NCBI GenBank assembly: GCA_016176295.1
Contig: JACOXN010000003.1
Coordinates: forward strand, 28,212 to 92,211
From: Candidatus Giovannonibacteria bacterium
Lineage (GTDB): Bacteria > Patescibacteriota > Minisyncoccia > UBA11713 > 2-01-FULL-45-33
DNA length: 64,000 bases
Direction of reading: 5' to 3'
This document shows positions 11,395-36,488 of this stretch, in pieces; positions within the stretch are counted from its first letter, which is position 1; every line of letters begins with the position of its first letter. The notes beneath the pieces were generated by a model, which was not told where the DNA came from, did no database searches, and worked only from the letters and a program-made list of their open reading frames with translations. The position numbers were made by a program, and so were the translations under genes.

Positions 11395-11909
11395 AATTTC
11401 TCAATGATATTCCCCCCTCTATCCACTTTACCGTGAATTTTCGCGGGATTTCCATATACAAGCGCAAAATCTGGCACATCTTTAGTCACAACTGAACCAG
11501 CGCCAATCAAAGCATATTCGCCTATTGTCACGCCTGGAAGTATGGTTGAACCAGCGCCTACGGATGCACCTTTTTTTATCAAAATTTTTCCCAAAACCCA
11601 ATCACGATCGTCTTTCAGTTTTCCATTTTCATCAATAGCCCGCGGAATTTTGTCATTAGTTAATATGACACCTGGACCCAAAAAAACACCATCCTCTAAA
11701 ATAACGCCATGATATACAAAAACGCCATTTTGTATCTTAACATTGTCTCCGATAGATACGCCAAAATCAACATATGATCCTTTGCCCAGAATGCAATTTT
11801 TCCCGACCGTGACTTTTTCCCTGACTTGCGCCTGGTGCCATATCTTTGTTCCTTCGCCTATCCGGCTTTCCGGTGATACGTCGGCAGATGGATGTACATA
11901 ATAGTTCAT
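11391..11909 (-). CDS. Left-handed beta-helix (hexapeptide) sugar N-acetyltransferase, WbpD/WlbB-like
   Basis: Continuous hexapeptide repeats ([39 protein letters not shown]..). Size and layout match 3-amino-sugar N-acetyltransferases. Confidence 0.7.
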
Positions 11910-11930
11910 GTTTATATAACTCCTGGAGAA

Positions 11931-14352: not shown

Positions 14353-14353
14353 A

Positions 14354-15448
14354 TTAAATATTTTTTATTGTATCTATTATGTAAGTGATATCCTTGTCGG
14401 AAACCCCGGGATGCACGGGCAGTGATAAAACCTCCTTAACCATTTGCTCAACAATCGGGAGAGAATACTTGCCCGCAGCGCGCACAATATGTGGAACCAA
14501 ATGCAATGGTTTAGGATAAAAAACCGCGTTTCCTATACCTTTTTCGGATAAATATTTTGAAAACTCATCTCTCGTCATTTTACAGTGTTTCGTAATTCTG
14601 ATCGTATACTGGTGAAATACATGTTTGCAATCTGGGCTTACATGTGGCAAAATTATTCCTTTTATCTTGTCCAGCCCCTTTGTAAGCATCGCCGAATTTT
14701 TGATTCTATTCTTATTGAAATTTTCTATTTTTTTCAACTGTGCCAGCCCGACGGCAGCAGAAATATCCGTCATTCGGTAATTATACCCCATATCAAAATA
14801 TTCATAGCGGGCTTTCTGCGATTGTCCATGATGCCGGAACATTCTTGCTCTTTCCGCATATTTCTCATTATCTGTTACCAAAATTCCACCTTCGCCAGTA
14901 GTCATATTTTTTGTCGCATAAAAAGAAAAACAACCGATATCTCCCAAAGCACCAGCTTTTTTATTTTTAAACACAGCACCGTGCGCCTGGCAGGCGTCTT
15001 CGATGATCTTTAATTTATTTTTGTTCGCAATTTTTCTAATTTTCTCAAAAGCATACGGATGCCCAAAAATATCAACGGGGAGGATAGCTTTTGTTTTAGC
15101 CGTGATTTTTCTCTCCAATTTATCCGGATCAATATTGAATGTTACAGGTTCAATATCGCAAAAAACCGGCTTTGCGCCTAATTGCAAAATTGCATTTACC
15201 GTAGCTACAAAAGTAAATGGAGTAGTGATAATCTCATCGCCTTTTCCTATACCAGCGGCGTATAAAGCAGTATGCAAAGCCGCCGTGCCGCTATTTACCG
15301 CAATCGCATATTTGGCCCCGCAATACTCAGCAAATTTCTTTTCAAATTCCGAAACTCTCGGCCCCTGGGCGATAATGCCGGACCGCAAAACATTGGTAAC
15401 CGCCACAATTTCTTCTTCGTTGAAATATGGTTGCGCAATATTGATCAT
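14354..15448 (-). CDS. DegT/DnrJ/EryC1/StrS-family PLP sugar aminotransferase (WbpE-like)
   Basis: AVNSGTAALH, DEIITTPFTFVAT and SFYATKNMTTGEGG (PLP-lysine region). Confidence 0.85.
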   Translation of the reverse strand: MINIAQPYFNEEEIVAVTNVLRSGIIAQGPRVSEFEKKFAEYCGAKYAIAVNSGTAALHTALYAAGIGKGDEIITTPFTFVATVNAILQLGAKPVFCDIEPVTFNIDPDKLERKITAKTKAILPVDIFGHPYAFEKIRKIANKNKLKIIEDACQAHGAVFKNKKAGALGDIGCFSFYATKNMTTGEGGILVTDNEKYAERARMFRHHGQSQKARYEYFDMGYNYRMTDISAAVGLAQLKKIENFNKNRIKNSAMLTKGLDKIKGIILPHVSPDCKHVFHQYTIRITKHCKMTRDEFSKYLSEKGIGNAVFYPKPLHLVPHIVRAAGKYSLPIVEQMVKEVLSLPVHPGVSDKDITYIIDTIKNI

Positions 15449-16995
15449 GATAATATTCGTTCTATCTCAGTCTTGTAAGCTCCCCATAACAAACTCTTCC
15501 CCTCTCCAGCCCATTCTTTGGTGATTTTATCGTAATCGAAGCCAGTATCAAACACGGCAGCAACATAATTTTCCAATTTTCGTTCATATTCGTCCGTGTT
15601 CAAATTTTTACTTAGTACTTCCTTTATTTTGGCAGACAAAGTAGTCAGATCGGTATGATGGGTCACATTTGGTAATTTTAATGAGGTACCCAAATCACCC
15701 AATTGAATGGCAGGTATCTTTAAAAAAGCTGCCTCAGCAATCGAAGTGCTTGACGGACTAATCACCACAGATGATCCTTTCAATACTTTTTCCGATGCGA
15801 TCCTATAATCAATAAATTTAACGTTGACGGTTCTTGCCACTTTTTCTATATAGGAAGGCGACCGCTTACCTATCATCACAGGATGTTCTTTTACTACCAA
15901 AGTATAATCATCCGGAAGAGATTGCGCGACAAGCCTTGCCGTTTCTATTTGATTGGAAAAATAGGGCGCCCTGACATCGATTGTCTCCTCTGGTTGAAAT
16001 TGAAGAGGCAGATAGGCATACCTTTTAACCGCCTCCAAAGGATAATAACTAAAACGATTCATAAACTTTTTATAACTCTTTTCACAAAAGTGATCCCTCA
16101 AAATAATCTTTGGTGGTTTATATTCGTATGTCGGACCCAGCTTCAGCATGTCCTTTGGCCTTTTTATGTACCAACGCAAAATTTGCTTGTAAGGTCCCAA
16201 CTCGGCTCGAATTTTCTGAAAAAAGGTTTTATTATCGCTTATCTTTATATATGTCGGGGTCTTAAAATTATCTCTAAATTCATTAATATATTGCCGAGCA
16301 CGTGCTCGATTCGGTGTTTCTTTTCGTCGGTCATTCAAAAAATTAACGCGGTCAAAAAAAATGCCGCGATCACACTGATATCCTTCCACAAAAATATAGA
16401 ATCCCTGCACTTTACTGTCCGTAGATGCCAACACCGGCACATTGTGTTTTCGCCCGTATAAATTGAACATAATATGCATCAAGGAGACAAAATTAGGACA
16501 GATCACCAGATCAGCTTTAAAGCCGTCAAAAAAGAATTTTATGCATTTATAGACAGCCTGGATATATTCAATCATTCGTTCGTCGGAAACATTCTTTTTA
16601 TATCCGAAATAATATTTATCTCCGTAAGATTTTGTGTAGAGCCGCATTGAATAAACAAAAGGCCAAATTGAATCGACACCTAATTCTGAACAAATCTCCT
16701 CCAAGGAATAAACATCCCCCGCAAGATATGCTCGCGGATCTCTTAATATTCCATCACCAAATAAAATATGATGATATTTAACATCGGGCTGATTCACAAT
16801 TAAATCGTGAGTAGTCTCCTTAAAAGTTAATGCCGCAAGTTCGCATCCTTCATCAAACAACTTCTTCGCCAAAAAACGGCCAACGCCTTTGCCCCAAGAG
16901 CGTTGTTGAAAAATTAAAACGCGTTTTCCTTTTAGATTACTCATCTTATCCAGCTTAGATAATAAAACCTTATCATGTATGGCTTTGTTTCTCAA
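15445..16995 (-). CDS. Capsule polysaccharide biosynthesis protein family (KpsC/KpsS/LpsZ-like, Capsule_synth) paralog 1
   Basis: YAYLPLQFQPEETIDVRAPYFSNQIETARLVAQSLPDDYTLVVKEHPV matches the family core (LQxxxDxxI ... KxHP). Paralogous to 33289-34719. Confidence 0.6.
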   Translation of the reverse strand: MRNKAIHDKVLLSKLDKMSNLKGKRVLIFQQRSWGKGVGRFLAKKLFDEGCELAALTFKETTHDLIVNQPDVKYHHILFGDGILRDPRAYLAGDVYSLEEICSELGVDSIWPFVYSMRLYTKSYGDKYYFGYKKNVSDERMIEYIQAVYKCIKFFFDGFKADLVICPNFVSLMHIMFNLYGRKHNVPVLASTDSKVQGFYIFVEGYQCDRGIFFDRVNFLNDRRKETPNRARARQYINEFRDNFKTPTYIKISDNKTFFQKIRAELGPYKQILRWYIKRPKDMLKLGPTYEYKPPKIILRDHFCEKSYKKFMNRFSYYPLEAVKRYAYLPLQFQPEETIDVRAPYFSNQIETARLVAQSLPDDYTLVVKEHPVMIGKRSPSYIEKVARTVNVKFIDYRIASEKVLKGSSVVISPSSTSIAEAAFLKIPAIQLGDLGTSLKLPNVTHHTDLTTLSAKIKEVLSKNLNTDEYERKLENYVAAVFDTGFDYDKITKEWAGEGKSLLWGAYKTEIERILS

Positions 16996-17010: not shown

Positions 17011-17490
17011 CTATGTTCGACGGGCCAAAGTCATTTCGACGCAAACGATTTTTTTGTAGGGAACTATGCCGCCATATTTATAGCCAGCTTTGGCGAAAGC
17101 CTTTAGTGAAGGAACATTGTCCTGTTTGATGTGCGCAATTATCCGTTGCACTTCCGGGTGCTCCGAAAAAAGCATTTTGGCAGATTCACGCAGGCCTTTA
17201 GACGCATAGCCTAAACCAAAAAACCTATGCTCTACAGATACGTGTACTTCTGCTATTTCGCCCCGAATGTCGTATCGCACTTGCCCGACAGAAGTTTCTC
17301 CGAAATGCTGTACAACGTCGTCAATCACATAGAGGATGCGATTGGGATCCGCCAAAACTCCGGCAAACCACTTCTGATGGGTTTCAAGATCGACTTCATC
17401 CGAGTTCCACGACGCAAGGCGAACCGGTTCTTCATTTCGAAGATTGAATAAAAATTTTTCGTCGCCATGTTTTGCTTTTCTTATATTCAT
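17011..17490 (-). CDS. GNAT-family N-acetyltransferase (PseH-like candidate)
   Basis: GNAT acetyl-CoA pocket (HRFFGLGYASKGLRE). Start set at MNIRKAKHGDE (17490) because the longer track ORF overlaps the upstream synthase gene. Confidence 0.65.
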   Translation of the reverse strand: MNIRKAKHGDEKFLFNLRNEEPVRLASWNSDEVDLETHQKWFAGVLADPNRILYVIDDVVQHFGETSVGQVRYDIRGEIAEVHVSVEHRFFGLGYASKGLRESAKMLFSEHPEVQRIIAHIKQDNVPSLKAFAKAGYKYGGIVPYKKIVCVEMTLARRT

Positions 17491-17533
17491 TCCATGTCTC
17501 CTTCTTTTATAGCCGCAATTCCAATCAATCGAA

Positions 17534-18655
17534 TTAATCCGCACCAATACTACCAGCAATATGTTCTTTTTTCAAGGGTGTGCCGAATTCGATATCTACT
17601 GCCGCTATCTTTCCGACTACTTGGTCAAAATATTTCGTGTGCAGGCCAAATGCCGGACGAACTGAACGAACATTTTCCGGAGTAAATTTTTCTCCTTTTT
17701 TAATATCTTTGGCAACGAAAAGCGAGCGCCGCCAGCGTAAATTATATTTCTCAAGCTTGTTTCGTGGTCCGTAGTTAGGCGTTCCTAAAGCTTTTTGGTA
17801 TCGAACTTCATTAATCTGGTAATTCTTTTTACCATGCAAAATTTCAACGAGTTCTTTCAGCTCCGCAGGCTCAAGGGAGAAATCAGCATCCGGACCGCCC
17901 AAAGCTCGGTCCAAAATAATATGCTTTTCTACGATTGCCGCCCCCGCGCGCATAGCCATAATCGGCACATCTACCCCCCCGGAATTATCGGAAAAACCTG
18001 CAACCACTCCCCATCTTTTTGAAATATCCTGAATTGTGGCTAGATTTGTGTGTTCCTCATCCGCTTCATTTTTATAATCGGTAATGCAGTGCAGGATAGC
18101 TATATCTTTTGCGCCGTTTTCACGAAGAGTTTTTAAAGCGAGCTCAATATCTTCAATGCTCGCATATCCAATTGACATTATTACCGGTTTTCCGGTCTCA
18201 GCGACTCGTTTTAACAAAATAAAGTCATTCACTTCATAAGAAGCAATCTTGTAGAATTGCGCATTCATTTTCTCCAAAAAATCAACGGCAGTAACATCAA
18301 AGGGAGAAGAAAAAAGAAAAATTCCGAGTTCATCCGCAAGTTTTTTCAGTTTCGGCTGCCATTCCCACGGAGTGTAAGCCTGCTGATAAAGCTGGTAAAG
18401 AGTCTTCCCTTTCCACAACGCCGGATTATCGGCATCCGCTCCGACGCGAAACCATTCTTTGTCGGAATTAAGAGTGATAGTGTCCGCAGTATAGGTCTGA
18501 AGTTTTATCGCATCCGCTCCCGCTTCTTTCGCAACCCTGACCAACGCTTCCGCTTCCGCATATTTCTGATGATGATTGCCGGATATCTCCGCCACTACAA
18601 AAACCGGCTCGCCGTCTCCTACCATTCTATTCCCTAGCTTAATAACTTTGGCCAT
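17534..18655 (-). CDS. pseI: Nonulosonic acid synthase (NeuB/PseI/LegI family), probably pseudaminic acid synthase
   Basis: VAEISGNHHQKYAEAEALVRVAKEAGADAIKLQTY plus a C-terminal SAF-type domain (FVAKDIKKGEKFTPENVRSVRP). The PseI versus LegI/NeuB choice rests only on the PseB/PseC context. Confidence 0.75.
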   Translation of the reverse strand: MAKVIKLGNRMVGDGEPVFVVAEISGNHHQKYAEAEALVRVAKEAGADAIKLQTYTADTITLNSDKEWFRVGADADNPALWKGKTLYQLYQQAYTPWEWQPKLKKLADELGIFLFSSPFDVTAVDFLEKMNAQFYKIASYEVNDFILLKRVAETGKPVIMSIGYASIEDIELALKTLRENGAKDIAILHCITDYKNEADEEHTNLATIQDISKRWGVVAGFSDNSGGVDVPIMAMRAGAAIVEKHIILDRALGGPDADFSLEPAELKELVEILHGKKNYQINEVRYQKALGTPNYGPRNKLEKYNLRWRRSLFVAKDIKKGEKFTPENVRSVRPAFGLHTKYFDQVVGKIAAVDIEFGTPLKKEHIAGSIGAD

Positions 18656-20874: not shown

Positions 20875-22015
20875 ACTCTCCTGCGAGTTTAGAAATAATA
20901 TTTGCCGATTCCGCGATTGATGTTTCTTCTCCGTATAAATGCAGATCAAGTTCCTTAATTCCGCGCAGCATTTCAAATGCCTCTTTGTCCCTTGGACCTC
21001 CGCGTCTGATAACTATCGGGAAATCAAATTTTTTAACCAGTTCTTTTTCCGCGCTCCTTAAGCCTTCCATCAATCCCGACAATGTCGCGTAAATATCGGT
21101 AAAATTAGCGATGGCGCCTACTATCCAAAGACCGCAAAGACCCGGCTTGGACATTACGATCTTAGCCAATTTTTCGATTTTTTCTTTCGGTGGATTTCCG
21201 GAATATTCCGTATAATTCGCCGGCCTACCGCCAGCCGCAAAAAGAGCATCAAGCGCCGTCAGAGAACCGCCGCCTCCGGAAGCCAAAACAGCTATATCCC
21301 CTGAAAGGTCGAAATACGCCGAGCCGGCCGTGCCTCTGTAGTCCCCCTCGTCAATTTTTTTTGCCGCAATTTCTCTTTCTGTCGGAGGCCTTCCGGAAAT
21401 CGATCTCGTAGGGAAATTCCATTCTTTGTGCCTCCCCGAAGCCGCGTCATCCAGTTTAATTTTTGCGTCAAGCGCGACATATCCCTGTTCGGACAAAACT
21501 AAGGGATTAATTTCCAAAAGCAGGCAGTCGCCATCAAAAAAAAGTCTAATAATTTTTTTTACCAGCTCGTCCGGCAATCCGGCAAGTGCCGGCACATGTT
21601 CCAGCGGATTTTTCGGGTCAATTGGAAATACACTGCTTTTGCGGTCCTCAATGCCGGTACCGCCTTCATCGGAAAACATTAAAACCGGTTCCCTGCTTTC
21701 CGTATCATAAGAAATAGAAATATAGTACTCGGAGCCGGAATATTCTATCTTCTCTTCGGCCAAAATACTCTCTATTTTTTCTCCGTTGATTGAAGAATCA
21801 AACATTTTGTAAACAGCGCTTTTGGCTTCGTCAGCATTGCTCACAATAATAATTCCTCCGGCATCTTTCCTTTTTCCGGTAAGTGTCTGCGCCTTCAAGA
21901 CAATATTCGATGCAACGGCAAAATCTGCCTTGAGAGATTTGATCAGCCGGGATTTCGGCACATTTATGCCCGCCTCTTCAAGAATCTTTTTGCCTTCAAA
22001 TTCGTAGAGAATCAT
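20846..22015 (-). CDS. ATP-grasp beta-type subunit, ATP-citrate-lyase / citryl-CoA-synthetase-like (SucC fold)
   Basis: ANYTEYSGNP (ACLY-type ANYGEYSGAP, not the SucC-type ANFLDVGGGA), IVGAIANFTDIYATLSGL, IVIRRGGPRDKEAFEML and LHLYGEETSI parallel ACLY blocks (IGGSIANFTNVAATFKGI, IFVRRGGPNYQEGLRVM, IHVFGTETHM). Confidence 0.7.
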   Translation of the reverse strand: MILYEFEGKKILEEAGINVPKSRLIKSLKADFAVASNIVLKAQTLTGKRKDAGGIIIVSNADEAKSAVYKMFDSSINGEKIESILAEEKIEYSGSEYYISISYDTESREPVLMFSDEGGTGIEDRKSSVFPIDPKNPLEHVPALAGLPDELVKKIIRLFFDGDCLLLEINPLVLSEQGYVALDAKIKLDDAASGRHKEWNFPTRSISGRPPTEREIAAKKIDEGDYRGTAGSAYFDLSGDIAVLASGGGGSLTALDALFAAGGRPANYTEYSGNPPKEKIEKLAKIVMSKPGLCGLWIVGAIANFTDIYATLSGLMEGLRSAEKELVKKFDFPIVIRRGGPRDKEAFEMLRGIKELDLHLYGEETSIAESANIISKLAGEYAKKHELVA

Positions 22016-22785
22016 TTTATCCGACCTCGATCTTTATCATTTTTTAACGATTTCTCATATCCCTCGTTCCGACCGATGGTTTGATTTATTTTAGCAATTT
22101 CGGGGTTTTTATCTAAAAAATCTAAAATATCCGTAAAACCGAAGTTTTTATTTTTTTTGTTAAGAGATCCGAATATTTTTTCCACCAAAATCAGATCTTC
22201 GAGGTTATCAACCGTTAACCTGATATCTGAAACATCTTTTTTATATTTTATATTTCCCAGCCTGAAAATTTCTGGATGGTTGGCAATATAAGCTGTCACA
22301 TGCTCTCGCTCCGATGGTAATCTGGCTTCGCGCCATGCCTTCTCCAGCGCAGCAAAAGAAAACACCTCTACATCCATTCCGTCCGGATAAGTGGGAGGCC
22401 TCACGTTGCTCACATAATCAAACTTATTTTTGTTTTTTAAATAATAATTCACCACATCGTCCACTATTTTCGGGTCCATTAAAGGGCAATCCCCAGTGAT
22501 GCGCACAATGACATCTCCACCAAATTTTTTGGCAGACTGATAATATCTATCCAAAACATCATTTTCCGAACCGCTGAACACGTCTATTCCCAATTTTTTG
22601 ACAACTTCCGCAGTTTCGTTATCCTCCGGTTTGTCGGTTGTGGCCAGAACAATCTTATCCAAAGTTTTGGCGCGTTTTAGACGCAATATTAAGTGCTCAA
22701 GCAAGGTCTTGCCCTCCACCACTTTAAGCACCTTTCCGGGAAGACGAGTGGAACCAATTCTTGCCTGTATAATTGCGACAGTCAT
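22012..22785 (-). CDS. Cytidylyltransferase (SpsF / acylneuraminate cytidylyltransferase family; CMP-nonulosonate synthetase candidate)
   Basis: N-terminal AIIQARIGSTRLPGKVLK and ITGDCPLMDP blocks. Confidence 0.7.
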   Translation of the reverse strand: MTVAIIQARIGSTRLPGKVLKVVEGKTLLEHLILRLKRAKTLDKIVLATTDKPEDNETAEVVKKLGIDVFSGSENDVLDRYYQSAKKFGGDVIVRITGDCPLMDPKIVDDVVNYYLKNKNKFDYVSNVRPPTYPDGMDVEVFSFAALEKAWREARLPSEREHVTAYIANHPEIFRLGNIKYKKDVSDIRLTVDNLEDLILVEKIFGSLNKKNKNFGFTDILDFLDKNPEIAKINQTIGRNEGYEKSLKNDKDRGRIK

Positions 22786-26337: not shown

Positions 26338-27465
26338 TTAACCGGTTATTCCTTGGATTTTCTCGATTACGAATTGCTGATATTTCTGCGTTAGACCGGG
26401 AAAAATCGGGATGGAAATCTCGGATTCGTAGAATTTTTCCGCACTGGAGCAAAGCCCTTTTTTGTATCCAAGTTTCCGGTAATAAGGATGCCAATATACC
26501 GGAATATAATGGACTTGCACGCCAATGCCGGCATCGCGTAGTTTTTTAAAAACTTCCGCGCGCTTTGAATTATCTTTAAGCCTCAAAGGGTAGAGATGCC
26601 AACTCGAGCTTGCACCTTTGTATTCTTTGGGCAGAATGATATTTTTATTGTTTTTGAAAGCCTCATTATATCGCGCGACTATTTTTTTTCTTGCCACTAT
26701 GAATTTACCCAATTTTTTCAGCTGTGTAATACCAAGCGCGGCCTGCATATCCGTCATACGATAATTATGCGCCAACTCCTGCATTTCATAGTACCAATCA
26801 CCGGCTGGTGAAGTCTCTAATTTTTTAATGTCTTTCGTAATTCCATGGCTCCTGTAAAGGCAAAGTTTCTCATAAAAATCCTTGTTATTCGTTGCAATCG
26901 CCCCGCCCTCGCCTGTCGCTATTGATTTAACGGGATGGAAGCTGAACATGGTCATATCAGCGATGCCGCCGATCTTTTTGCCTTTGTATGAAGCACCCAA
27001 AGCATGGGCGGAATCTTCAAGGAGTATTAAATTGTGTTTTTTTGCCAAGACTTTAAGCTCATCCAATTTCGCGGGAAGCCCGGAATAATCCACCGGCACA
27101 ATAGCGCGTGTTCTGGGAGTTATCTTTTTTTCGACTTCCTTGGGATCTATATTTCCGGATCCTTCTTCAATATCCGCAAAAACAATTTTTGCTCCGCTCC
27201 ACAAAGCCGCGTTGGATGTTGCGGCAAAAGTGAGAGGTGTAGTTATTACCTCGTCGCCCTTTTTCAAACCTGCGGCAAAGTAAGCCGCCTCAAGAGCGGC
27301 AGTACCGTTTGAGAATGCGACGGCGAACTTAGCTCCCGCTTCCTTAGCCAGAGCTCTTTCAAATTCACCGACTTTCGGGCCTTGAGTTAAAAAATCGGAT
27401 CTCAAAACATCAACAACCGCTTTGATGTCGTCTTCACCAATAGATTGATGGCTGTAGGGAATCAT
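26338..27465 (-). CDS. pseC: UDP-4-amino-4,6-dideoxy-N-acetyl-beta-L-altrosamine transaminase (PseC-like, DegT family)
   Basis: MIPYSHQSIGEDDIKAVVDVLRSDFLTQGPKV is a PseC-type N-terminus, with FSFHPVKSIATGEGG as the PLP-lysine region. Start moved to the ATG at 27465 (the track uses an upstream TTG). Confidence 0.75.
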   Translation of the reverse strand: MIPYSHQSIGEDDIKAVVDVLRSDFLTQGPKVGEFERALAKEAGAKFAVAFSNGTAALEAAYFAAGLKKGDEVITTPLTFAATSNAALWSGAKIVFADIEEGSGNIDPKEVEKKITPRTRAIVPVDYSGLPAKLDELKVLAKKHNLILLEDSAHALGASYKGKKIGGIADMTMFSFHPVKSIATGEGGAIATNNKDFYEKLCLYRSHGITKDIKKLETSPAGDWYYEMQELAHNYRMTDMQAALGITQLKKLGKFIVARKKIVARYNEAFKNNKNIILPKEYKGASSSWHLYPLRLKDNSKRAEVFKKLRDAGIGVQVHYIPVYWHPYYRKLGYKKGLCSSAEKFYESEISIPIFPGLTQKYQQFVIEKIQGITG

Positions 27466-27477
27466 TGTATTAATTTT

Positions 27478-27527
27478 CAATTATCAATTTACAATTTTCA
27501 ATAAATGTTAAAATCATCAATTTTCAA
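27478..27527. repeat. Left inverted-repeat block flanking the four-helix-bundle ORF
   Basis: CAATTATCAAT (27478-27488) plus three AATTTTCAA 9-mers (27472, 27493, 27519). Reverse complement of the block at 27888-27929. Confidence 0.65.
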
Positions 27528-27889
27528 ACACCTCTGGATGAACGGCTAATTTTAGCAAAAATTAGAAGCAATTCATTTGCTTCTCTCCAAAATTTTTTTA
27601 TTTCTTCTGTTCGTTCTGAATTTGCTCTTGCCAGCAATCGTAACCAATGTTTCGTTTCTTTTATTTCTTTCTTCACTATGCCAATCTTATGAATAAAATC
27701 TTTTTTACTTTCCGCCTCTACTGCCTCACAATAGTTTGCCCCCGTTGATCCCGAAGAACCTACCAATTGATCAATAATTCTGCGGTTTACCACATCAATA
27801 CTTAAAGTTCTAACAAAATCAATAATTTCTTCCGCAAACTTTGCTGTTCTTTCCTCAAGATCAAACTTCTGATTTGATAATTTATCCAT
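27524..27889 (-). CDS. Four-helix-bundle protein (family formerly called '23S rRNA intervening-sequence protein')
   Basis: 121 aa. GANYCEAVEAESKKDFIHKIGIVKKEIKETKHWLRLL is the hallmark of this family. Confidence 0.8.
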   Translation of the reverse strand: MDKLSNQKFDLEERTAKFAEEIIDFVRTLSIDVVNRRIIDQLVGSSGSTGANYCEAVEAESKKDFIHKIGIVKKEIKETKHWLRLLARANSERTEEIKKFWREANELLLIFAKISRSSRGV

Positions 27890-27929
27890 TGAAAATTCAT
27901 TGATAATTGTTCATTGAAAACTGAAAATT
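27888..27929. repeat. Right inverted-repeat block flanking the four-helix-bundle ORF
   Basis: ATTGAAAATT-c-ATTGATAATTG (27888-27909), then TTGAAAACT (27914) and CTGAAAATT (27921). Overlaps the ORF start codon. Confidence 0.65.
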
Positions 27930-27947
27930 ATTTATCGAATTTCGTGC

Positions 27948-28934
27948 TTAACTTTCTAGAACTTCTTTGGCTTTTTCTAATGGCAAAAGAAAATCTTTGT
28001 GGTTGCTCACATATAAGGAGTTTACCGGGAAGTTTGGTTTATTCGCATGAACACTGGGCTCTTGGTCGGCGCTGAACTCCGGCAAAATCGCATAAAAAAG
28101 TCCGAGATCCTTTGCCCGCCTAGCCTCGTATTCCGTAATTAAAATCTCATGCATTTTTTCACCCGGACGCACTCCAACCGTTTTTAAAGTGCAGTTCGGC
28201 GCTAAAGTTTTTAGTACATCCACGACTTTCAAACTATTCATCTTGGGCACGAAGATTTCGCCTCCTTCCATAACGCCGAGCCCCGTCAAAATAACATTCA
28301 TAACATTGTCTACTTTTATCCAGAAACGAGTCATGCGCTCATCCGTGAGGGTAAGCACTCCGGTATGCTTCTGCTTCGCAACCAGCTCCACAATGCTTCC
28401 GCGGCTCCCGATGACATTGCCGTATCTTACTACGCTGAACTTGGTCTTTCCTTTCGCCCCGCGGTAAGCATTGGCAGCTATTACCAGTCTTTCCGCGCAC
28501 AGTTTGCTTGCCCCGTAAAGATTAACCGGCTGAACCGCCTTGTCCGATGATACAAAAAGAACTTTTTCAACGTTATTGTCCAAGGCGGCATCTACCACAT
28601 TTTGAGTTCCCAAAACATTTGTTTTTATAGCTTCGAGCGGATTATATTCCAAAGCCGGAACTTGTTTCAACGCCGCGGCATGCACCACAATGTCTACTCC
28701 GTTAAAAGCGCGGTCCAACCTAGGCAAGTCCCTCACGTCTCCCAAAAAATATCTTACCCTAGCGTCATTTACTTCATTTTGCATGACGCTCTGTTTAAAT
28801 TCGTCCCTGCTGAAAATTATTATCTTTTTAATATCAGGAATTGCCAGCAATTTAGCCACGAAAGCATGACCAAATGTACCGGTCCCCCCGGTTACTAAAA
28901 TTGTTTTTCCTTTTAAAAATGAATTGTCCATCAT
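27948..28934 (-). CDS. pseB: UDP-N-acetylglucosamine 4,6-dehydratase (inverting), PseB/FlaA1-like
   Basis: GKTILVTGGTGTFGHAFV, IIIFSRDEFKQ, RYFLGDVRD and YGASKLCAE (SDR YxxxK). Confidence 0.85.
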   Translation of the reverse strand: MMDNSFLKGKTILVTGGTGTFGHAFVAKLLAIPDIKKIIIFSRDEFKQSVMQNEVNDARVRYFLGDVRDLPRLDRAFNGVDIVVHAAALKQVPALEYNPLEAIKTNVLGTQNVVDAALDNNVEKVLFVSSDKAVQPVNLYGASKLCAERLVIAANAYRGAKGKTKFSVVRYGNVIGSRGSIVELVAKQKHTGVLTLTDERMTRFWIKVDNVMNVILTGLGVMEGGEIFVPKMNSLKVVDVLKTLAPNCTLKTVGVRPGEKMHEILITEYEARRAKDLGLFYAILPEFSADQEPSVHANKPNFPVNSLYVSNHKDFLLPLEKAKEVLES

Positions 28935-33288: not shown

Positions 33289-34719
33289 CTATTTTGAAAT
33301 ATTTGCTAAAATCTTGTCTGCTAAATTCACTTTCGCTTCTTCCGGTGATATAGTAAGTTCCCTCTCCGGAACCGATTCCAAATAAGCCTGGATAGTAACA
33401 TCTCCCAAACTTTTCAAATAATTAATAACTTCTGACTCTTTTACGTCAAAACCGGACTTAATTTTCTCCAAAGCCGCACGACAAGAATCTAGGCCACTTA
33501 TCCTGAAAACACCTGGACAATCACGATACCACGGGTACCCAAAAATCAAAGCTGGCTTTGAACGTAAAATTGCTTCCCAGCCTGGTGTACCAGTTACCAC
33601 AGCAACAGTTTGAGAATTTTTTATTAAAGAAAAAGTATCTGTAACGATGGGCACCAATTTTACATTGTTTATTTTTGAAATTCTATTGTAAAAACCCGGA
33701 TATCTGGCACTCGAATAATTTAAACCGCCCCGTAACCACCATTGGCCGGGATGTTCTTTTACGTATATTGTCCAACCTTCGGGCAATGAAGCAGATAATG
33801 TATCGATCATCAAGATTTGGTCCGCGTACATGTCTCCCATGGGACTCGTGACCATCTCTGGTTGGAATCCGAGAGCAACATATATGAATTTTTCTGAAAA
33901 AACCGGAGGAACTTGCACACTTTCGTACTCTGTCTTTAAATTCATTCGAAATTGCTTAAGTGCAAATCGAAACAATTTATTAAATATGGTTCCATCTTTG
34001 ACGCTTACCAGGGTAATTTTAAGCCGCCTAAAAAAAATGTTTTTTCTGCCAGCAATCAAATTTCTATAGTGCTTCATGTAAACCGGCTCAGAATCCTTTT
34101 GCTTATCTGAGTGAATCATATAATATTGTTTTATGTCCTGGCTTAGATCATCGATTGAACAATTACTTTTTTTATTTTTTTCTATAGCGTTCCTCAAATC
34201 AGAGCTGCCATCTATCCAATCCGAATATGTTAAAACTCTGTTGGCAACCCAAGTATCGTCGAACATGACGGTTTTAATGTTCAGCATTCTGGCAAGAGAG
34301 TATATTATATAATTGTAAACAGTGTGGGGTATGGCGGGAAATATTATAGCGTCGGGCTTATATTTTTCAATTAGCCCATCCCAATATTGAAGCATATTGT
34401 AATAAATATGCCGTCGCTCATCCACACACAAAGTATCAAATTTCTTATTCATCATTGTGAGCACGATAGATTCGGTTTTGTACATCTTCTCGATCAGATC
34501 CTTGCTTGGGGGCGGAAACTCCGAGGGGTCAATACCTTTAGCCGGCTCGCATACCCAGGCATCGTAGTGGTCATGAAAAACCGTTCCCTGCAGATCGGGC
34601 GCCTTACCGTTCTCATACAAACCCACCCAATACGGAATTGAGTGCCCATTTTCTTTTAGTTTGTTTATGAGCTGTTCCATTTGAGAATATGGAGCAGCCC
34701 AGATCAAAAATAGTTTCAT
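33289..34719 (-). CDS. Capsule polysaccharide biosynthesis protein family (KpsC/KpsS-like) paralog 2
   Basis: FIYVALGFQPEMVTSPMGDMYADQILMIDTLSASLPEGWTIYVKEHPGQWW has the same core pattern as 15445-16995. Confidence 0.6.
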   Translation of the reverse strand: MKLFLIWAAPYSQMEQLINKLKENGHSIPYWVGLYENGKAPDLQGTVFHDHYDAWVCEPAKGIDPSEFPPPSKDLIEKMYKTESIVLTMMNKKFDTLCVDERRHIYYNMLQYWDGLIEKYKPDAIIFPAIPHTVYNYIIYSLARMLNIKTVMFDDTWVANRVLTYSDWIDGSSDLRNAIEKNKKSNCSIDDLSQDIKQYYMIHSDKQKDSEPVYMKHYRNLIAGRKNIFFRRLKITLVSVKDGTIFNKLFRFALKQFRMNLKTEYESVQVPPVFSEKFIYVALGFQPEMVTSPMGDMYADQILMIDTLSASLPEGWTIYVKEHPGQWWLRGGLNYSSARYPGFYNRISKINNVKLVPIVTDTFSLIKNSQTVAVVTGTPGWEAILRSKPALIFGYPWYRDCPGVFRISGLDSCRAALEKIKSGFDVKESEVINYLKSLGDVTIQAYLESVPERELTISPEEAKVNLADKILANISK

Positions 34720-36488
34720 TATTCCCGAATATTATATACTTTATAAAAATATGAATCTTTGTTTTTTAATAGTTCCTCTGGTGATCCTTCCTCGACTATC
34801 TTTCCGTCTTTAATCGCAAGTAATTTATCTGAGTTCATAATAGTTGAAAGCCGATGTGCAATAACTAAAACTGTAATTTTACCCTTGAGGTTTTCAATGA
34901 CTTTTTGGATCTTTACCTCCGATTCGTTGTCCAAGGCACTGGTGGCTTCATCCAGTATTAACAGCTGGGGATCCCGCGCCAAAACGCGCGCAATCACAAT
35001 TCTTTGGCGCTGTCCGCCGGATAAAAGAGCGCCCCTTTCACCTATCACTGTTTCAAACTTTTCCGGCAAACCGGAAATGAAATCATAAATGTTGGCCATT
35101 TTGGCCGCTTCGATCATTTTTTCCTCAGTAATCGAATTATTATAAAATTTTATATTACTGGAAATTGTATCGTTCATCAAAAAGATATCCTGGGAAACAT
35201 ATCCTATGTTCCTACGCCATTCTTCCATGCTAATGTTTTGAATGTTGTTTCCATCCAGTATTATTGAACCGCTTACCGGTTTTAATAGGCGCAGAAGCAA
35301 ATCCACCAAAGTTGTTTTACCGGCTCCTGAAGGGCCCACCAAACCTGCCATCTGTCCTTTATTTATTACGAAAGAAATATTCTGAAGCACATTCCTTTCG
35401 AAATTGTATGAAAAATTAATATTATTAAATTCTAAACTTCGATTGAAAGTAAATTTATCGTTTCCGCCTATCGGTTCTTTGCGTAAAACCGATTCATCCT
35501 CATAATTCAAAACCCTTTCTACATACGGAATAAGCGAGTTGGTTCCGATAAAAAATGACTGGACCTGCTCAATATATACGAAAATTTGCTTGGAAACGTA
35601 CATGATAACCGCGAAAGCCGCAAAATTGAAATTCCCGGCCTTATAAGAGAGTGCGAAAATCAGGGAAATAAAGATAAGGCTTACCGGTTCCAGCAAAGAA
35701 CTGCTGAAAGCGCTTATAATCGAGGATCGGATCCGCAGTTCCTTTACCTTTGCAAAATATTCGCCGCCCTTTCCGGCCACAGCTTTTCCTGCAAACATTG
35801 TTTTTACCGTTTTCATGCCCATGATATTTTCGTTGGTAAAATGGGCTATTTGCTTCTGTAATTTTTCGTCTTCATGCGATATGCGCCTGACCCGCGAAAC
35901 GACCGGACGCAAAACTGCTAAAAACAAAACACCGCCCAAAGCAAAGGTCAAAAAAGTTGTCTGCAGCGATATGTTAACGGCAATAAAGGTATAAACTAAC
36001 AGATTTGCGAATACCAGCATGGCGCTCGAAACAACCGTCATCATCGATTTTGTATACTGCAGATCTATCATAAAAATGGTTTCCAAATATCCGAGTTTTT
36101 GTTTTAAAAGATAAGGCCAATCTGCCTCCAAAGTCGCGCCAAAGAGCTTGTTTCTTTTCTTCTCTTCATAATCAGCGGAAATCCTGCTGTTAATGTATGA
36201 AAAGAAAACCAATACCGCCGCCTTCAGCACAAAAAGCACGATCATAAAAATAAGCAGATACTTCAAACTGAATTCTATATTGAGAAATGAAAATATATTT
36301 TTAATAGAGCGGGTTATCACATCGTCATTTCCGGTCTCTGCCCCCACTACAAAAGAAAACAAAGGCACCAAAGCATTTATTCCTATACCCCCCAAAAGAC
36401 CGCTCAAAAATCCAAGAACCGAAAGCAAGGCGATATGATATTTGTATTCGCCAAAGCTTCTGTAAAATAATTTAAAAAACTCTACCAT
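34719..36488 (-). CDS. ABC exporter, fused permease-ATPase (MsbA/type I exporter-like)
   Basis: Six-TM N-terminal half. Walker A GPSGAGKTT, signature LSGGQRQR, Walker B LLILDEATSALD. Confidence 0.9.
   Translation of the reverse strand: MVEFFKLFYRSFGEYKYHIALLSVLGFLSGLLGGIGINALVPLFSFVVGAETGNDDVITRSIKNIFSFLNIEFSLKYLLIFMIVLFVLKAAVLVFFSYINSRISADYEEKKRNKLFGATLEADWPYLLKQKLGYLETIFMIDLQYTKSMMTVVSSAMLVFANLLVYTFIAVNISLQTTFLTFALGGVLFLAVLRPVVSRVRRISHEDEKLQKQIAHFTNENIMGMKTVKTMFAGKAVAGKGGEYFAKVKELRIRSSIISAFSSSLLEPVSLIFISLIFALSYKAGNFNFAAFAVIMYVSKQIFVYIEQVQSFFIGTNSLIPYVERVLNYEDESVLRKEPIGGNDKFTFNRSLEFNNINFSYNFERNVLQNISFVINKGQMAGLVGPSGAGKTTLVDLLLRLLKPVSGSIILDGNNIQNISMEEWRRNIGYVSQDIFLMNDTISSNIKFYNNSITEEKMIEAAKMANIYDFISGLPEKFETVIGERGALLSGGQRQRIVIARVLARDPQLLILDEATSALDNESEVKIQKVIENLKGKITVLVIAHRLSTIMNSDKLLAIKDGKIVEEGSPEELLKNKDSYFYKVYNIRE

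What the first reader, a model, noticed from the sequence alone, without database searches (positions are those of the whole stretch)
15445..16995. Two KpsC/KpsS-like paralogs as candidate CMP-nonulosonate (not Kdo) transferases
ORFs 15445-16995 and 33289-34719 share the Capsule_synth core (LPLQFQPEETID...LVVKEHP versus VALGFQPEMVTS...IYVKEHP). In characterised systems this family (KpsC/KpsS) transfers Kdo from CMP-Kdo. No Kdo biosynthesis genes (kdsA/kdsB-like) are visible in this window. The only CMP-ulosonic donor the locus appears to make is a Pse-type sugar. Rhizobial K-antigen loci that make Pse-containing polymers also contain KpsS-like (RkpZ/LpsZ) genes. These two proteins are therefore reasonable candidates for the missing nonulosonate transferases or polymerases.
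Basis: inference. Interest (0 to 1): 0.55.

Follow-up and report, generated by a model that had tools for sequence, protein, structure and literature searches.

The report
Two candidate pseudaminic acid transferases
In an uncultured Patescibacteria (Giovannonibacteria) genome, two distantly related "hypothetical" enzymes sit inside a pseudaminic-acid sugar locus and are relatives of KpsS1, the pseudaminic-acid transferase of this enzyme family that has been characterised, so they most likely attach that sugar to a cell-surface glycan; this is a sound assignment but it has precedent.

Summary
Both ORFs are real and are genuine, very distant paralogs (profile-profile E 1.4e-23 over 434 columns). 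The contig is from Candidatus Giovannonibacteria (Patescibacteria/CPR). Each protein represents a family conserved across many CPR lineages, with a few relatives in Proteobacteria and Chloroflexota.

Both have a GT-B fold. By profile comparison both sit much closer to A. baumannii KpsS1, the characterised retaining Pse5Ac7Ac transferase that founded GT118, than to the E. coli Kdo transferases KpsC and KpsS. All three share an invariant Glu in a (Q/H)x(Q/H)PE motif at the position of the Asp nucleophile of the Kdo-transferase QxxxD motif. They also share a VK(E/D)H motif.

Of 56 genomic loci with a P1 homolog, 44 carry PseI, PseB or PseC within 10 kb. An MsbA/PglK-type ABC exporter and P2 are often adjacent.

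I raised one rival myself: that P1 replaces the missing PseG. It is rejected, because P1 homologs co-occur with canonical PseG in five loci.

The window has no kdsA, kdsC or kdsD.

These are new, deep-branching members of a known kind. The activity itself is untested.

The parts
15445..16995 (-). P1: 516-aa GT-B protein (probable true start ATG at 16944, giving 499 aa). It belongs to a CPR-wide family annotated 'hypothetical'. Candidate CMP-Pse-dependent glycosyltransferase of the KpsS1/GT118-like clade.
   Evidence: ORF. 100% identical to NCBI HYT01_00345 from Candidatus Giovannonibacteria; homologs are 55-84% identical across Patescibacteria. AF2 model pLDDT 88.6 with two Rossmann domains and a helical insert. 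Foldseek returns generic GT-B hits. hhalign versus KpsS1-like: probability 98.9, E 2.3e-17, 330 columns.
15988..16002 (-). P1 motif Q332-F-Q-P-E336. E336 aligns with the Asp nucleophile of the QxxxD motif of KpsC and KpsS, and with E303 of KpsS1.
   Evidence: Alignments. The Glu is invariant in 19 of 19 family members. Coordinates. The loop has low pLDDT in the model.
15880..15891 (-). P1 K369-E-H-P372, the 'HP' CMP-phosphate-binding motif of CMP-ulosonate transferases.
   Evidence: Aligns with KPHP/KVHP of KpsC. K369 is invariant in 19 of 19. The role of the motif is taken from PMC10148158 and PMC12887879.
33289..34719 (-). P2: 476-aa GT-B protein and a divergent Capsule_synth member. Its start overlaps the stop of the ABC exporter gene. 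Second candidate CMP-Pse-dependent glycosyltransferase.
   Evidence: ORF. Pfam PF05159 29.5 bits. Profile versus KpsC in the PDB: E 2.9e-7. AF2 pLDDT 91.9. hhalign versus KpsS1-like: probability 99.4, E 3.6e-21. The ABC-P2 adjacency is conserved.
33856..33864 (-). P2 motif Q286-P-E288, equivalent to P1 Q334-P-E336.
   Evidence: Invariant in the P2 family. Alignment. Coordinates.
33748..33759 (-). P2 K321-E-H-P324, the HP motif.
34719..36488 (-). Fused TMD-NBD ABC exporter (HepA/MsbA/PglK-like). It is the conserved partner of P2 and often lies divergent to or beside P1. Inferred to flip or export the lipid-linked glycan.
   Evidence: NCBIfam hits: HepA 346 bits, MsbA 315, PglK 225, all below cut-off. 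Present in 21 of 56 P1 loci; the order ABC-P2-P1 is seen in L065, L070, L016/L034 and L069.
17011..18655 (-). PseI (17534-18655) and a PseH-like GNAT (17011-17559), immediately upstream of P1. The order NeuB-GNAT-P1 is conserved.
   Evidence: PseI 402 bits, cut-off 340. The GNAT matches the PseH half of a Klebsiella PseG-PseH fusion. Synteny. One homolog, P0071, is a GNAT-P1 fusion.
22012..22785 (-). CTP_transf_3 cytidylyltransferase, the presumed CMP-Pse(-derivative) synthetase that supplies the donor.
   Evidence: Pfam PF02348. NCBIfam KdsB-like 71 bits and PseF 29 bits, both below cut-off. Conserved in 25 of 56 P1 loci. Fused to the class III aminotransferase in L064 and L067.
26338..28934 (-). 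PseC (26338-27480) and PseB (27948-28934), the committed steps of the Pse pathway.
   Evidence: PseC 486.5 bits. PseB 408.5 bits.

Best explanation
P1 and P2 are two anciently diverged paralogs of the KpsS1 (GT118)-like branch of the Capsule_synth / retaining ulosonic-acid GT-B superfamily.

Most likely both are peripheral-membrane, metal-independent glycosyltransferases. Their donor would be the CMP-activated pseudaminic-acid derivative made by the same locus: PseB, PseC, a GNAT, PseI and a CTP_transf_3 synthetase, plus amidino and other tailoring enzymes. Each would put the sugar onto a different acceptor position of a lipid-linked glycan. That glycan is started by the Bac_transf enzyme, built by the GT4 enzymes and a TagF-like enzyme, and exported or flipped by the adjacent MsbA/PglK-type ABC exporter.

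By analogy with KpsC, WbbB and KpsS1, the HP-motif His and the Lys bind or protonate the CMP phosphate. The invariant Glu (P1 E336, P2 E288) occupies the nucleophile position of a double-displacement (retaining) mechanism.

Shown here: homology, motifs, fold, synteny, and co-occurrence with PseG.
Inferred: donor identity, acceptor, stereochemistry, and membrane association.
For: 1. Paralogy is full-length: hhalign A1 versus A2, E 1.4e-23, 434 columns.

2. Both models are confident GT-B folds with a helical insert.

3. Both are closer to KpsS1 than to Kdo transferases.
- The A. baumannii ORF at L017:14285-15727 is identified as KpsS1 by its position after the Pse biosynthesis genes, by Capsule_synth at 53.5 bits, and by the E132 'YE' motif described in PMC12887879.
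- HMM bits for P1: KpsS1 50.6, KpsC 15.6, KpsS 10.1. For P2: KpsS1 66.6, KpsC 43.4, KpsS 14.2.
- hhalign versus KpsS1-like: 98.9%, E 2.3e-17 (P1) and 99.4%, E 3.6e-21 (P2), each over more than 320 columns. Against KpsC-N the alignment covers at most 108 columns.
- The BLASTP ranking agrees.

4. The signature (Q/H)x(Q/H)PE and VK(E/D)H is shared, and the Glu is invariant in 19 of 19 members including KpsS1.

5. Context. Of 56 genome loci with a full-length P1 homolog, 44 have PseI, PseB or PseC within 10 kb, 35 have PseI, 25 have the cytidylyltransferase and 21 have the ABC exporter. The orders NeuB-GNAT-P1 and ABC-P2-(PseB) recur across candidate phyla. ABC-P2-P1 form an overlapping operon next to PseG-PseI in the isolate Thalassospira aquimaris (L070).

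6. No KdsA, KdsC or KdsD is in the window.

7. Precedent. KpsS1 is a biochemically characterised retaining Pse transferase (PMC12887879, citing Walklett 2024). Capsule_synth genes next to NulO modules were already proposed to be NulO transferases (PMC4487303).

8. Neither protein has a TM helix. Both have basic pI (9.3 and 8.3) and a Lys/Arg- and aromatic-rich helical insert, which is compatible with a membrane-surface enzyme.
Against: - No activity data exist for any member of either family.
- Identity to KpsS1 is only 28-29% over 130-154 aa by BLASTP.
- The proposed general base of KpsS1, Glu132 of the YE motif, is not conserved in P1 or P2. The aligned residues are Pro-Asn in P1 and Phe-Pro in P2, with a conserved His a few residues downstream.
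- The catalytic loop of P1 is modelled with low confidence.
- Foldseek against the PDB ranks generic GT-B enzymes, such as UDP-GlcNAc 2-epimerases, above KpsC and WbbB, with TM-scores of only 0.2-0.44.
- The window makes one nonulosonate (one NeuB) but has two candidate transferases. It also has two other HP-type GT-B proteins: the TagF-like protein at 7866-9059 and the DUF6716-like protein at 22945-23997.
- The locus cytidylyltransferase is not a recognisable PseF, and no PseG is present, so the exact sugar is uncertain.
- The rest of the genome could not be inspected for kds genes.
Confidence: 0.65

Rival explanations
1. P1 is not a transferase. It is a non-orthologous replacement for the missing PseG (UDP-2,4-diacetamido-2,4,6-trideoxy-beta-L-altropyranose hydrolase), working between PseH and PseI.
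For: - No canonical PseG is found in the window or in most CPR loci.
- P1 sits exactly next to the PseH-like GNAT and PseI.
- One homolog is a GNAT-P1 fusion (P0071), which is reminiscent of known PseG-PseH fusions such as the 510-aa Klebsiella gene in L018.
- P1 gives weak Epimerase_2/NeuC hits.
Against: - P1 homologs co-occur with a canonical PseG in the same locus in 5 genomes: L054, L064, L065, L067 and L070.
- In Magasanikbacteria, P1 lies beside P2 and the ABC exporter; the only Pse genes in the fetched flank (PseB and PseC) are about 8 kb from P1 (L016/L034).
- hhalign of P1 against a PseG alignment gives only 18% probability, against 98.9% for KpsS1-like.
- P1 keeps the CMP-type HP motif and the nucleophile-position Glu.
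- A DUF218 gene next to PseI is present in 17 loci and never together with PseG, so it is an alternative candidate for the missing step.
Confidence: 0.05
2. They are true KpsS/KpsC-type beta-Kdo transferases that build a Kdo linker, with CMP-Kdo made elsewhere in the genome.
For: - P2 passes Pfam Capsule_synth and matches KpsC in the PDB.
- The pairing of two paralogs with an ABC exporter resembles KpsS, KpsC and KpsMT.
- The locus cytidylyltransferase scores best against KdsB models.
Against: - The QxxxD Asp nucleophile is replaced by Glu in every member.
- Both families are far closer to KpsS1 than to KpsC or KpsS.
- No KdsA, KdsC or KdsD is in the 64-kb window.
- The host is a Patescibacteria bacterium; it is established knowledge, not tested here, that this group lacks LPS/Kdo pathways.
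- The ABC exporter is MsbA/PglK-type, not KpsMT-type.
- The KdsB-like enzyme is embedded in Pse genes and is fused to the Pse-locus aminotransferase in other genomes.
Confidence: 0.03
3. One or both proteins use a different activated donor, such as CDP-glycerol, another CMP- or CDP-linked substrate, or a UDP-sugar. They would be linked to the Pse genes only because they act on the same glycan. The true Pse transferase would then be another gene, for example the TagF/BFO_1060-like protein at 7866-9059 or the DUF6716-like ORF at 22945-23997.
For: - The window has one NeuB but four HP-type or TagF-like GT-B proteins.
- The protein at 7866-9059 gives a sub-threshold hit (26 bits) to the BFO_1060 family, which contains the genetically defined T. 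forsythia Pse/Leg transferases (PMC5420450).
- The His of the HP motif is replaced by Asn or Gln in some relatives.
Against: - The protein at 7866-9059 is a Glyphos_transf member. In the window, in L010 and in L016 it sits within a gene or two of a small cytidylyltransferase, which fits use of CDP-glycerol. It is present in only 7 of 56 P1 loci.
- P1 gives an equal BFO_1060 score (25 bits).
- P1 and P2 are specifically related to the one characterised Pse transferase of this fold.
- The DUF6716-like ORF was found only in this contig.
Confidence: 0.17
4. One paralog is catalytically inactive and serves as a scaffold, chain-length regulator or export adaptor for the ABC transporter. This is the role proposed for RkpZ in rhizobia.
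For: - P2 is translationally coupled to the ABC exporter.
- The proposed base residue of KpsS1 is absent from both.
- The RkpZ-like protein is a remote relative.
Against: Both families keep the invariant Glu, the Lys, the HP motif and the C-terminal T..EA nucleotide-binding helix under strong conservation: 45-60% identity across candidate phyla.
Confidence: 0.1

Closest known systems
KpsS1 of Acinetobacter baumannii (CAZy GT118), a retaining alpha-Pse5Ac7Ac transferase, together with the related predicted NulO transferases KpsS2 and Gtr59
   Same: - GT-B, Capsule_synth superfamily.
- Encoded next to a Pse biosynthesis module.
- Shared (Q/H)x(Q/H)PE motif with an invariant Glu, the VK(E/D)H motif and the C-terminal T..EA helix.
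- Significant profile similarity over more than 320 columns.
- Similar length (480 aa against 476 and 499-516 aa).
   Different: - Only 28-29% identity over the C-terminal domain.
- Glu132 of the KpsS1 'YE' motif, its proposed base, is not conserved.
- KpsS1 has HK where P1 and P2 have HP.
- KpsS1 works in a Wzx/Wzy capsule pathway of a diderm. P1 and P2 come as a pair coupled to an MsbA/PglK-type ABC exporter in Patescibacteria.
- P1 is not recognised by Pfam Capsule_synth.
KpsC and KpsS (GT107) and WbbB (GT99), retaining beta-Kdo transferases
   Same: - GT-B fold with a helical insertion.
- HP CMP-binding motif.
- An acidic residue at the nucleophile position, five residues after a strand-ending P(L/G)Q.
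- The arrangement of two paralogous enzymes plus an ABC transporter resembles KpsS/KpsC/KpsMT.
- P2 matches KpsC-N (hhalign 96.7%) and WbbB/KpsC by Foldseek.
   Different: - QxxxD is replaced by QxxxE (P1) or xxQPE (P2).
- The relationship is much more distant than to KpsS1.
- No Kdo pathway genes are in the locus.
- The ABC transporter is of a different type.
Tanf_01245 / TFUB4_00887 / BFO_1060 family of Tannerella forsythia, genetically defined Pse- and Leg-derivative transferases (PMC5420450)
   Same: - GT-B with an HP motif.
- Encoded beside a NulO locus.
- The acceptor is a ManNAc-type sugar, and the CPR loci also encode WecB (UDP-ManNAc).
   Different: - Only sub-threshold hits: 25 bits (P1) and 15 bits (P2) against a cut-off of 200.
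- That family is TagB/Glyphos_transf-like, which P1 and P2 are not.
PseG (UDP-sugar hydrolase of the Pse pathway)
   Same: - GT-B fold.
- Gene position between or next to PseH and PseI.
- Occasional fusion to a GNAT domain.
   Different: - No sequence relationship beyond the fold.
- It co-occurs with P1 in five loci.

Membership tests
Pfam Capsule_synth (PF05159) superfamily | Score at or above the gathering threshold (20 bits) | tested here: met
   P2 scores 29.5 bits. P1 itself is below threshold with no hit. However, 38 of 38 more distant P1-profile hits are Capsule_synth-positive, and hhalign of P1 against that set gives E 1e-70. P1 membership is therefore transitive.
GT107/GT99 retaining beta-Kdo transferases (KpsC, KpsS, WbbB) | Invariant QxxxD motif with an Asp nucleophile | tested here: not met
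   The aligned position is Glu in P1 (Q332-F-Q-P-E336) and in P2 (G-F-Q-P-E288). It is Glu in all 19 family members examined.
GT107/GT99 retaining beta-Kdo transferases (KpsC, KpsS, WbbB) | HP motif that binds the CMP phosphate | tested here: met
   KEHP in both proteins, aligned to KPHP/KVHP of KpsC.
GT107/GT99 retaining beta-Kdo transferases (KpsC, KpsS, WbbB) | N-terminal-domain Glu general base (KpsC-N Glu66, WbbB equivalent) | tested here: inconclusive
   The N-terminal domains do not align with KpsC at sequence level.
GT107/GT99 retaining beta-Kdo transferases (KpsC, KpsS, WbbB) | A CMP-Kdo supply (KdsA/B/C/D or KpsF/KpsU) in the locus or genome | tested here: not met
   No KdsA, KdsC or KdsD is in the 64-kb window. 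The only CTP_transf_3 gene is embedded in the Pse genes. The whole genome could not be tested.
GT107/GT99 retaining beta-Kdo transferases (KpsC, KpsS, WbbB) | Closest relatives are bona fide Kdo transferases | tested here: not met
   hhalign, HMM and BLAST all rank KpsS1-like proteins far above KpsC and KpsS.
GT118 (KpsS1-like pseudaminyltransferases) | Significant sequence similarity to KpsS1 across the catalytic module | tested here: met
   hhalign 98.9%, E 2.3e-17, 330 columns (P1). hhalign 99.4%, E 3.6e-21, 321 columns (P2). BLASTP E 1e-12 (P1) and 9e-15 (P2), 28-29% identity. Whether CAZy would place them in GT118 or in new families cannot be decided here.
GT118 (KpsS1-like pseudaminyltransferases) | Gene lies next to a Pse (NulO) biosynthesis module | tested here: met
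   In the window, P1 abuts the PseH-like GNAT and PseI, and P2 lies in the same locus. 44 of 56 P1 loci carry PseI, PseB or PseC within 10 kb.
GT118 (KpsS1-like pseudaminyltransferases) | Glu132 of the 'YE' motif, the proposed general base (PMC12887879) | tested here: not met
   The aligned residues are C-P-N in P1 and F-P-A in P2. A conserved His lies 3-6 residues downstream (P1 H174, P2 H132).
GT118 (KpsS1-like pseudaminyltransferases) | Retaining transfer of Pse from CMP-Pse | not testable with these tools
   Requires an enzyme assay.
PseG (TIGR03590) | Homology to PseG, and mutual exclusivity with canonical PseG if P1 were a functional replacement | tested here: not met
   No NCBIfam PseG hit. 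No phmmer hit with Klebsiella or Acinetobacter PseG. hhalign gives 18% for P1 and 0.3% for P2. P1 co-occurs with PseG in 5 loci.
BFO_1060 family (NF046086) NulO transferases / TagB-TagF Glyphos_transf | Score at or above the NCBIfam cut-off (200 bits), or above the Pfam PF04464 threshold | tested here: not met
   P1 scores 25.2 bits and P2 15.3 bits. Neither has a PF04464 hit. hhalign against the window's TagF-like protein gives at most 2%.

The most novel reading that the evidence does not exclude
P1, P2 and the coupled MsbA/PglK-type ABC exporter form a conserved three-gene machine of Patescibacteria, shared with a few Proteobacteria and Chloroflexota. It would be the pseudaminic-acid counterpart of KpsS/KpsC/KpsMT. 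One paralog would prime a lipid acceptor with Pse and the other would extend it. The product would be an oligo- or poly-Pse lipid-linked anchor or homopolymer that is exported to the surface of these wall-bound, host-attached ultra-small bacteria. The chemistry would use a Glu nucleophile instead of Asp, and a base other than the YE-motif Glu of KpsS1.
Probability: 0.15. Interest if true: 0.75.

Novelty: new member of a known kind. Interest (0 to 1): 0.45.

Why it matters
Few transferases for pseudaminic or legionaminic acid have been characterised. In this fold family the work here found one biochemically characterised enzyme, KpsS1.

This analysis adds two deep-branching subfamilies. One of them is invisible to Pfam and NCBIfam, and both are annotated only as 'hypothetical'. 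It also defines a shared sequence signature: (Q/H)x(Q/H)PE with an invariant Glu, followed by VK(E/D)H.

It further shows that a Pse-pathway / P1 / P2 / ABC-exporter module is conserved across many Patescibacteria lineages. Two full-text searches found no paper linking Patescibacteria or the candidate phyla radiation with pseudaminic or nonulosonic acids. If confirmed, this would give a first biochemical handle on a conserved surface glycan of CPR bacteria.

The ortholog set in the cultured Thalassospira aquimaris makes the hypothesis directly testable.

Tried and rejected
- PseG-replacement hypothesis for P1. I raised it because PseG is missing and P1 abuts PseH and PseI. I rejected it after finding canonical PseG together with P1 in 5 loci.

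- Foldseek against the PDB for both models. It gave only generic GT-B hits with poor TM-scores (0.2-0.44), so it does not discriminate between families.

- Single-sequence PDB search for P1 found nothing. The P1 profile gave only a marginal KpsC hit, E 0.018.

- The window ORF at 22945-23997 and the similarly sized unknown ORFs in L010 and L016 turned out not to be homologous. The latter two are GNAT-like.

- Legionaminic or neuraminic acid as the locus sugar was considered because of the Epimerase_2 gene. It was rejected because that gene is a non-hydrolysing WecB (286 bits) and PseB, PseC and PseI pass their equivalog cut-offs.

- The rhizobial RkpZ analogy: the Rm41 RkpZ-like ORF is only a remote relative.

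- The Walklett 2024 paper on KpsS1 is not held in the library. KpsS1 properties are therefore taken second-hand from PMC12887879.

- Literature searches linking Patescibacteria or CPR with pseudaminic or nonulosonic acid found nothing relevant.

Full report
OBSERVATION

Both ORFs exist as stated. P1 is window 15445-16995(-), 516 aa from a TTG start. P2 is 33289-34719(-), 476 aa. P1 homologs start at the equivalent of M18, so the real start is probably the ATG at 16944.

The quoted motifs are present. P1 has QFQPE at 15988-16002 and KEHP at 15880-15891. P2 has QPE at 33856-33864 and KEHP at 33748-33759.

The two proteins are only 24% identical over 170 C-terminal residues by BLASTP (E 4e-11). 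Alignments of 41 and 44 homologs align over 434 columns with hhalign probability 99.6 and E 1.4e-23. They are therefore real, ancient, full-length paralogs and not a chance motif match.

Only P2 passes Pfam Capsule_synth (29.5 bits, cut-off 20). P1 has no Pfam or NCBIfam family at threshold.

ORGANISM AND FAMILIES

P1 is 100% identical to NCBI protein HYT01_00345 of a Candidatus Giovannonibacteria bacterium. Its 120 best relatives are 55-84% identical. Where they carry a source name, they are called hypothetical proteins of Falkow-, Kuenen-, Buchanan-, Zambryski-, Portnoybacteria and other Patescibacteria. P2 has an equally conserved family at 43-73% identity.

An exhaustive profile search with the P1 family found 271 clusters (50% identity) at E<=1e-30 and 7,307 at E<=1e-3. 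A sample of 38 distant hits (E 1e-57 to 1e-37) are all Capsule_synth-positive. That ties P1 to the superfamily transitively.

A scan of species-representative genomes found 65 loci, mostly Patescibacteria. There were also full-length P1 homologs at 31-44% identity in Gamma- and Alphaproteobacteria MAGs, in Chloroflexota and in the isolate Thalassospira aquimaris.

THE LOCUS

Nearly all genes are on the minus strand.

- Pse pathway: PseB (27948-28934, 408.5 bits), PseC (26338-27480, 486.5 bits) and PseI (17534-18655, 402 bits) pass NCBIfam equivalog cut-offs. Two GNATs are weakly PseH-like.
- Cytidylyltransferase: a CTP_transf_3 enzyme (22012-22785) scores better against KdsB than against PseF models, far below both cut-offs.
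- Amidino tailoring: WbuX, HisF and HisH (29638-32281) would make an acetamidino group.
- Second sugar: the DegT gene next to P1 is not PseC. It belongs to a WbpB/E/D/I-like module (10276-15448) together with a non-hydrolysing WecB.
- Assembly and export: the locus also has a Bac_transf initiating enzyme (75-941), several GT4 enzymes, a TagF-like enzyme with a small cytidylyltransferase (7064-9059), and a fused ABC exporter (34719-36488; best hits HepA, MsbA and PglK) whose stop overlaps the P2 start.
- No KdsA, KdsC or KdsD homolog is present in the window. No canonical PseG is present either.

STRUCTURE

AlphaFold2 models are confident: P1 pLDDT 88.6, P2 pLDDT 91.9. Each shows two Rossmann-like domains separated by a helical insertion.

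WHICH FAMILY?

I obtained reference sequences from annotated records.

- KpsS1. The A. baumannii K-locus ORF at L017:14285-15727 lies after the Pse genes and a wzx-sized gene. It is Capsule_synth at 53.5 bits. It has E132 in a YE motif, exactly as described for KpsS1 in PMC12887879.
- A related ORF in a Klebsiella plasmid pse cluster.
- E. coli UTI89 KpsC, KpsS, NeuS and NeuE.
- A S. meliloti Rm41 RkpZ-like ORF.

HMM bit scores:

| Query HMM | KpsS1 | Klebsiella ORF | KpsC | KpsS |
|---|---|---|---|---|
| P1 | 50.6 | 70.6 | 15.6 | 10.1 |
| P2 | 66.6 | 87.5 | 43.4 | 14.2 |

hhalign results:

| Query | Target | Probability | E-value | Columns |
|---|---|---|---|---|
| P1 family | KpsS1-like | 98.9% | 2.3e-17 | 330 |
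| P1 family | KpsC-N | 59.7% | 8.8e-5 | 79 |
| P1 family | KpsS | 7% | 0.0049 | 282 |
| P1 family | PseG | 18% | 0.0013 | 86 |
| P1 family | TagF-like (window) | 1.7% | 0.03 | 49 |
| P2 family | KpsS1-like | 99.4% | 3.6e-21 | 321 |
| P2 family | KpsC-N | 96.7% | 3.3e-10 | 108 |
| KpsS1-like | KpsS | 93.7% | 1.9e-7 | 141 |
| KpsS1-like | KpsC-N | 94.6% | 6.5e-8 | 94 |

KpsS1-like proteins are themselves only remotely related to KpsS and KpsC. BLASTP gives the same ranking.

So P1, P2 and KpsS1 are three deep branches of one clade. The Kdo transferases lie outside it.

MOTIFS

[quoted passage not shown] In QxxxD the Gln binds the carboxylate and the Asp is the nucleophile. The HP motif binds CMP (PMC10148158, PMC12887879).

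Alignments to KpsC and KpsS put P1 Q332/E336 on the Q/D positions and KEHP on K(P/V)HP. Across 19 members of the P1/P2/KpsS1 clade, the Glu (P1 E336, P2 E288, KpsS1 E303), a Pro and the Lys of VK(E/D)H are invariant. The clade signature is therefore (Q/H)x(Q/H)PE rather than QxxxD.

The proposed KpsS1 base, Glu132 of the YE motif, is not conserved in P1 or P2. A conserved His lies a few residues downstream (P1 H174, P2 H132).

Neither protein has a transmembrane segment. Both are basic, and their helical inserts are rich in Lys, Arg and aromatic residues. This is compatible with a membrane-surface enzyme acting on a lipid-linked acceptor, but that is an inference.

GENOMIC CONTEXT

I called ORFs in all fetched loci and searched them with the window's Pse proteins, two PseG sequences and the P1 and P2 HMMs. 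Of 56 genome loci with a full-length P1 homolog, the following had each gene within 10 kb:

| Gene within 10 kb | Loci (of 56) |
|---|---|
| PseI, PseB or PseC | 44 |
| PseI | 35 |
| Cytidylyltransferase | 25 |
| Class III aminotransferase | 28 |
| WecB | 23 |
| ABC exporter | 21 |
| P2 | 8 |

Most of the remaining loci are short contigs.

Recurrent arrangements:
- DUF218-PseI-GNAT-P1.
- ABC-P2-PseB.
- P2<-ABC<- | ->P1 (divergent).
- ABC-P2-P1, as an overlapping operon next to PseG-PseI in Thalassospira aquimaris and in an Alphaproteobacteria MAG.

THE PseG RIVAL

PseG is missing from the window. P1 abuts the PseH-like GNAT and PseI, and is fused to a GNAT in one homolog. I therefore considered that P1 replaces PseG.

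This is rejected for four reasons. Canonical PseG and a P1 homolog co-occur in five loci: L054, L064, L065, L067 and L070. P1 shows no specific similarity to PseG. P1 retains the CMP-type motifs. In Magasanikbacteria, P1 sits beside P2 and the ABC exporter; the only Pse genes in the fetched flank (PseB and PseC) are about 8 kb away.

Incidentally, a DUF218 gene next to PseI (17 loci) and PseG (5 loci) never co-occur. DUF218 is therefore a candidate for the missing step. The signal is weak and confounded by phylogeny.

MECHANISM (BEST EXPLANATION, CONFIDENCE ABOUT 0.65)

P1 and P2 are KpsS1-like transferases that depend on a CMP-Pse derivative. Each would add the locus's pseudaminic-acid derivative to a different position of a lipid-linked glycan. 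That glycan is then flipped or exported by the coupled ABC exporter.

The HP His and the Lys would handle the CMP phosphate. The invariant Glu sits at the nucleophile position of a double-displacement, retaining mechanism.

Homology, motifs, fold and synteny are shown. Donor, acceptor, stereochemistry and membrane association are inferred. A ManNAc-type acceptor is possible, given the conserved WecB and the T. forsythia precedent in PMC5420450.

Remaining rivals:
- A different donor for one or both proteins (0.17).
- One paralog is non-catalytic (0.10).
- PseG replacement (0.05).
- True Kdo transferases (0.03).

COMPARISON WITH WHAT IS KNOWN, AND NOVELTY

The idea that Capsule_synth proteins beside nonulosonate modules are nonulosonate transferases was proposed by Kenyon and colleagues (PMC4487303). 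According to PMC12887879, it was confirmed biochemically for KpsS1 (GT118; Walklett 2024).

What is new:
- Two deep-branching subfamilies, one of them unrecognised by Pfam and NCBIfam.
- Their pairing with an MsbA/PglK-type exporter.
- Conservation of the whole Pse module across Patescibacteria. No paper was found linking that group with pseudaminic or nonulosonic acids.

I classify this as new members of a known kind, of moderate interest (0.45). The most novel reading not excluded is a KpsS/KpsC-like two-enzyme system that builds an oligo-Pse lipid anchor or polymer in CPR bacteria (probability about 0.15).

Noticed in passing
window 18662-19291 (-), with a second copy at 41919-42431 (+); also L012, L020, L022, L025 and others: A DUF218 gene sits directly upstream of PseI in 17 of 56 P1 loci. 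Canonical PseG is present in 5 loci. The two never co-occur. Since no PseG is found in the window, DUF218 might be a non-orthologous replacement for the UDP-sugar hydrolase step. The signal is weak (hypergeometric p about 0.03) and confounded by phylogeny.
   Followed up: partly
window 19281-22015 (-): Three genes lie inside the Pse cluster, between the cytidylyltransferase and DUF218: a succinyl-CoA-ligase beta-like gene (ATP-grasp_2/Citrate_bind), an alpha-like gene (CoA_binding/Ligase_CoA) and a short citryl-CoA-lyase-like gene. All are below NCBIfam cut-offs. This ATP-citrate-lyase-like trio was not seen in the other loci examined. It may make an unusual acyl substituent.
   Followed up: no
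window 22012-22785 (-) and 24075-25394 (-); L064:3370-5409, L067:2480-4642: The locus CMP-sugar synthetase resembles KdsB (71 bits) more than PseF (29 bits). It is conserved together with a class III (GSA-aminomutase-like) aminotransferase, and the two are fused into one ORF in two proteobacterial loci. That suggests a coupled, uncharacterised step on the activated sugar.
   Followed up: partly
window 22945-23997 (+): The only plus-strand gene inside the cluster is a 350-aa protein. It gives weak hits to DUF6716, the family of E. coli NeuE (19 bits), and to the C-terminal half of the P1 HMM (16.5 bits), and it contains an 'IHPGD' stretch. It may be a fourth HP-type GT-B protein. It was found only on this contig.
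   Followed up: partly
window 7064-9059 (-): A TagF-like protein (Pfam Glyphos_transf 29 bits; also 26 bits to the BFO_1060 NulO-transferase family) lies next to a small cytidylyltransferase (RfaE-domain-II/TagD-like). With the GT4-WecB pair at 9059-11394, this resembles a wall-teichoic-acid-type linkage unit.
   Followed up: partly
window 10276-15448 (-): A WbpB/WbpE/WbpD/WbpI-like module is present: a GFO/IDH 3-dehydrogenase (317 bits to archaeal UDP-GlcNAc 3-dehydrogenase), a DegT aminotransferase, a NeuD-type acetyltransferase and a non-hydrolysing WecB, plus a methyltransferase and an unknown gene. It implies a 2,3-diacetamido sugar as a second unusual component. The DegT gene next to P1 is not PseC.
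   Followed up: partly
L009:435-2477 (protein P0071; the same contig is L026): A single 680-aa ORF fuses the PseH-like GNAT to a P1 homolog. The contig is labelled 'uncultured Gammaproteobacteria', but its P1 homolog is 57% identical to the window's P1, within the range seen for the Patescibacteria homologs.
   Followed up: partly
window 27524-27889 (-): A 121-aa gene of the '23S rRNA intervening sequence protein' family (PF05635) is inserted between PseB and PseC.
   Followed up: no
window 1094-4789 (-) and 45720-47171 (-): Large proteins containing LTD and PKD domains (1231 aa and 483 aa) flank the glycan locus. They may be secreted or surface proteins and possible glycosylation targets.
   Followed up: no
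L010/L015 (one contig), L012, L022, L044 and others: Many related Patescibacteria loci carry two NeuB genes and two CTP_transf_3 genes, plus radical-SAM, B12-binding, WbqC and formyltransferase genes. They may therefore make two differently tailored nonulosonates. The window has only one NeuB.
   Followed up: no
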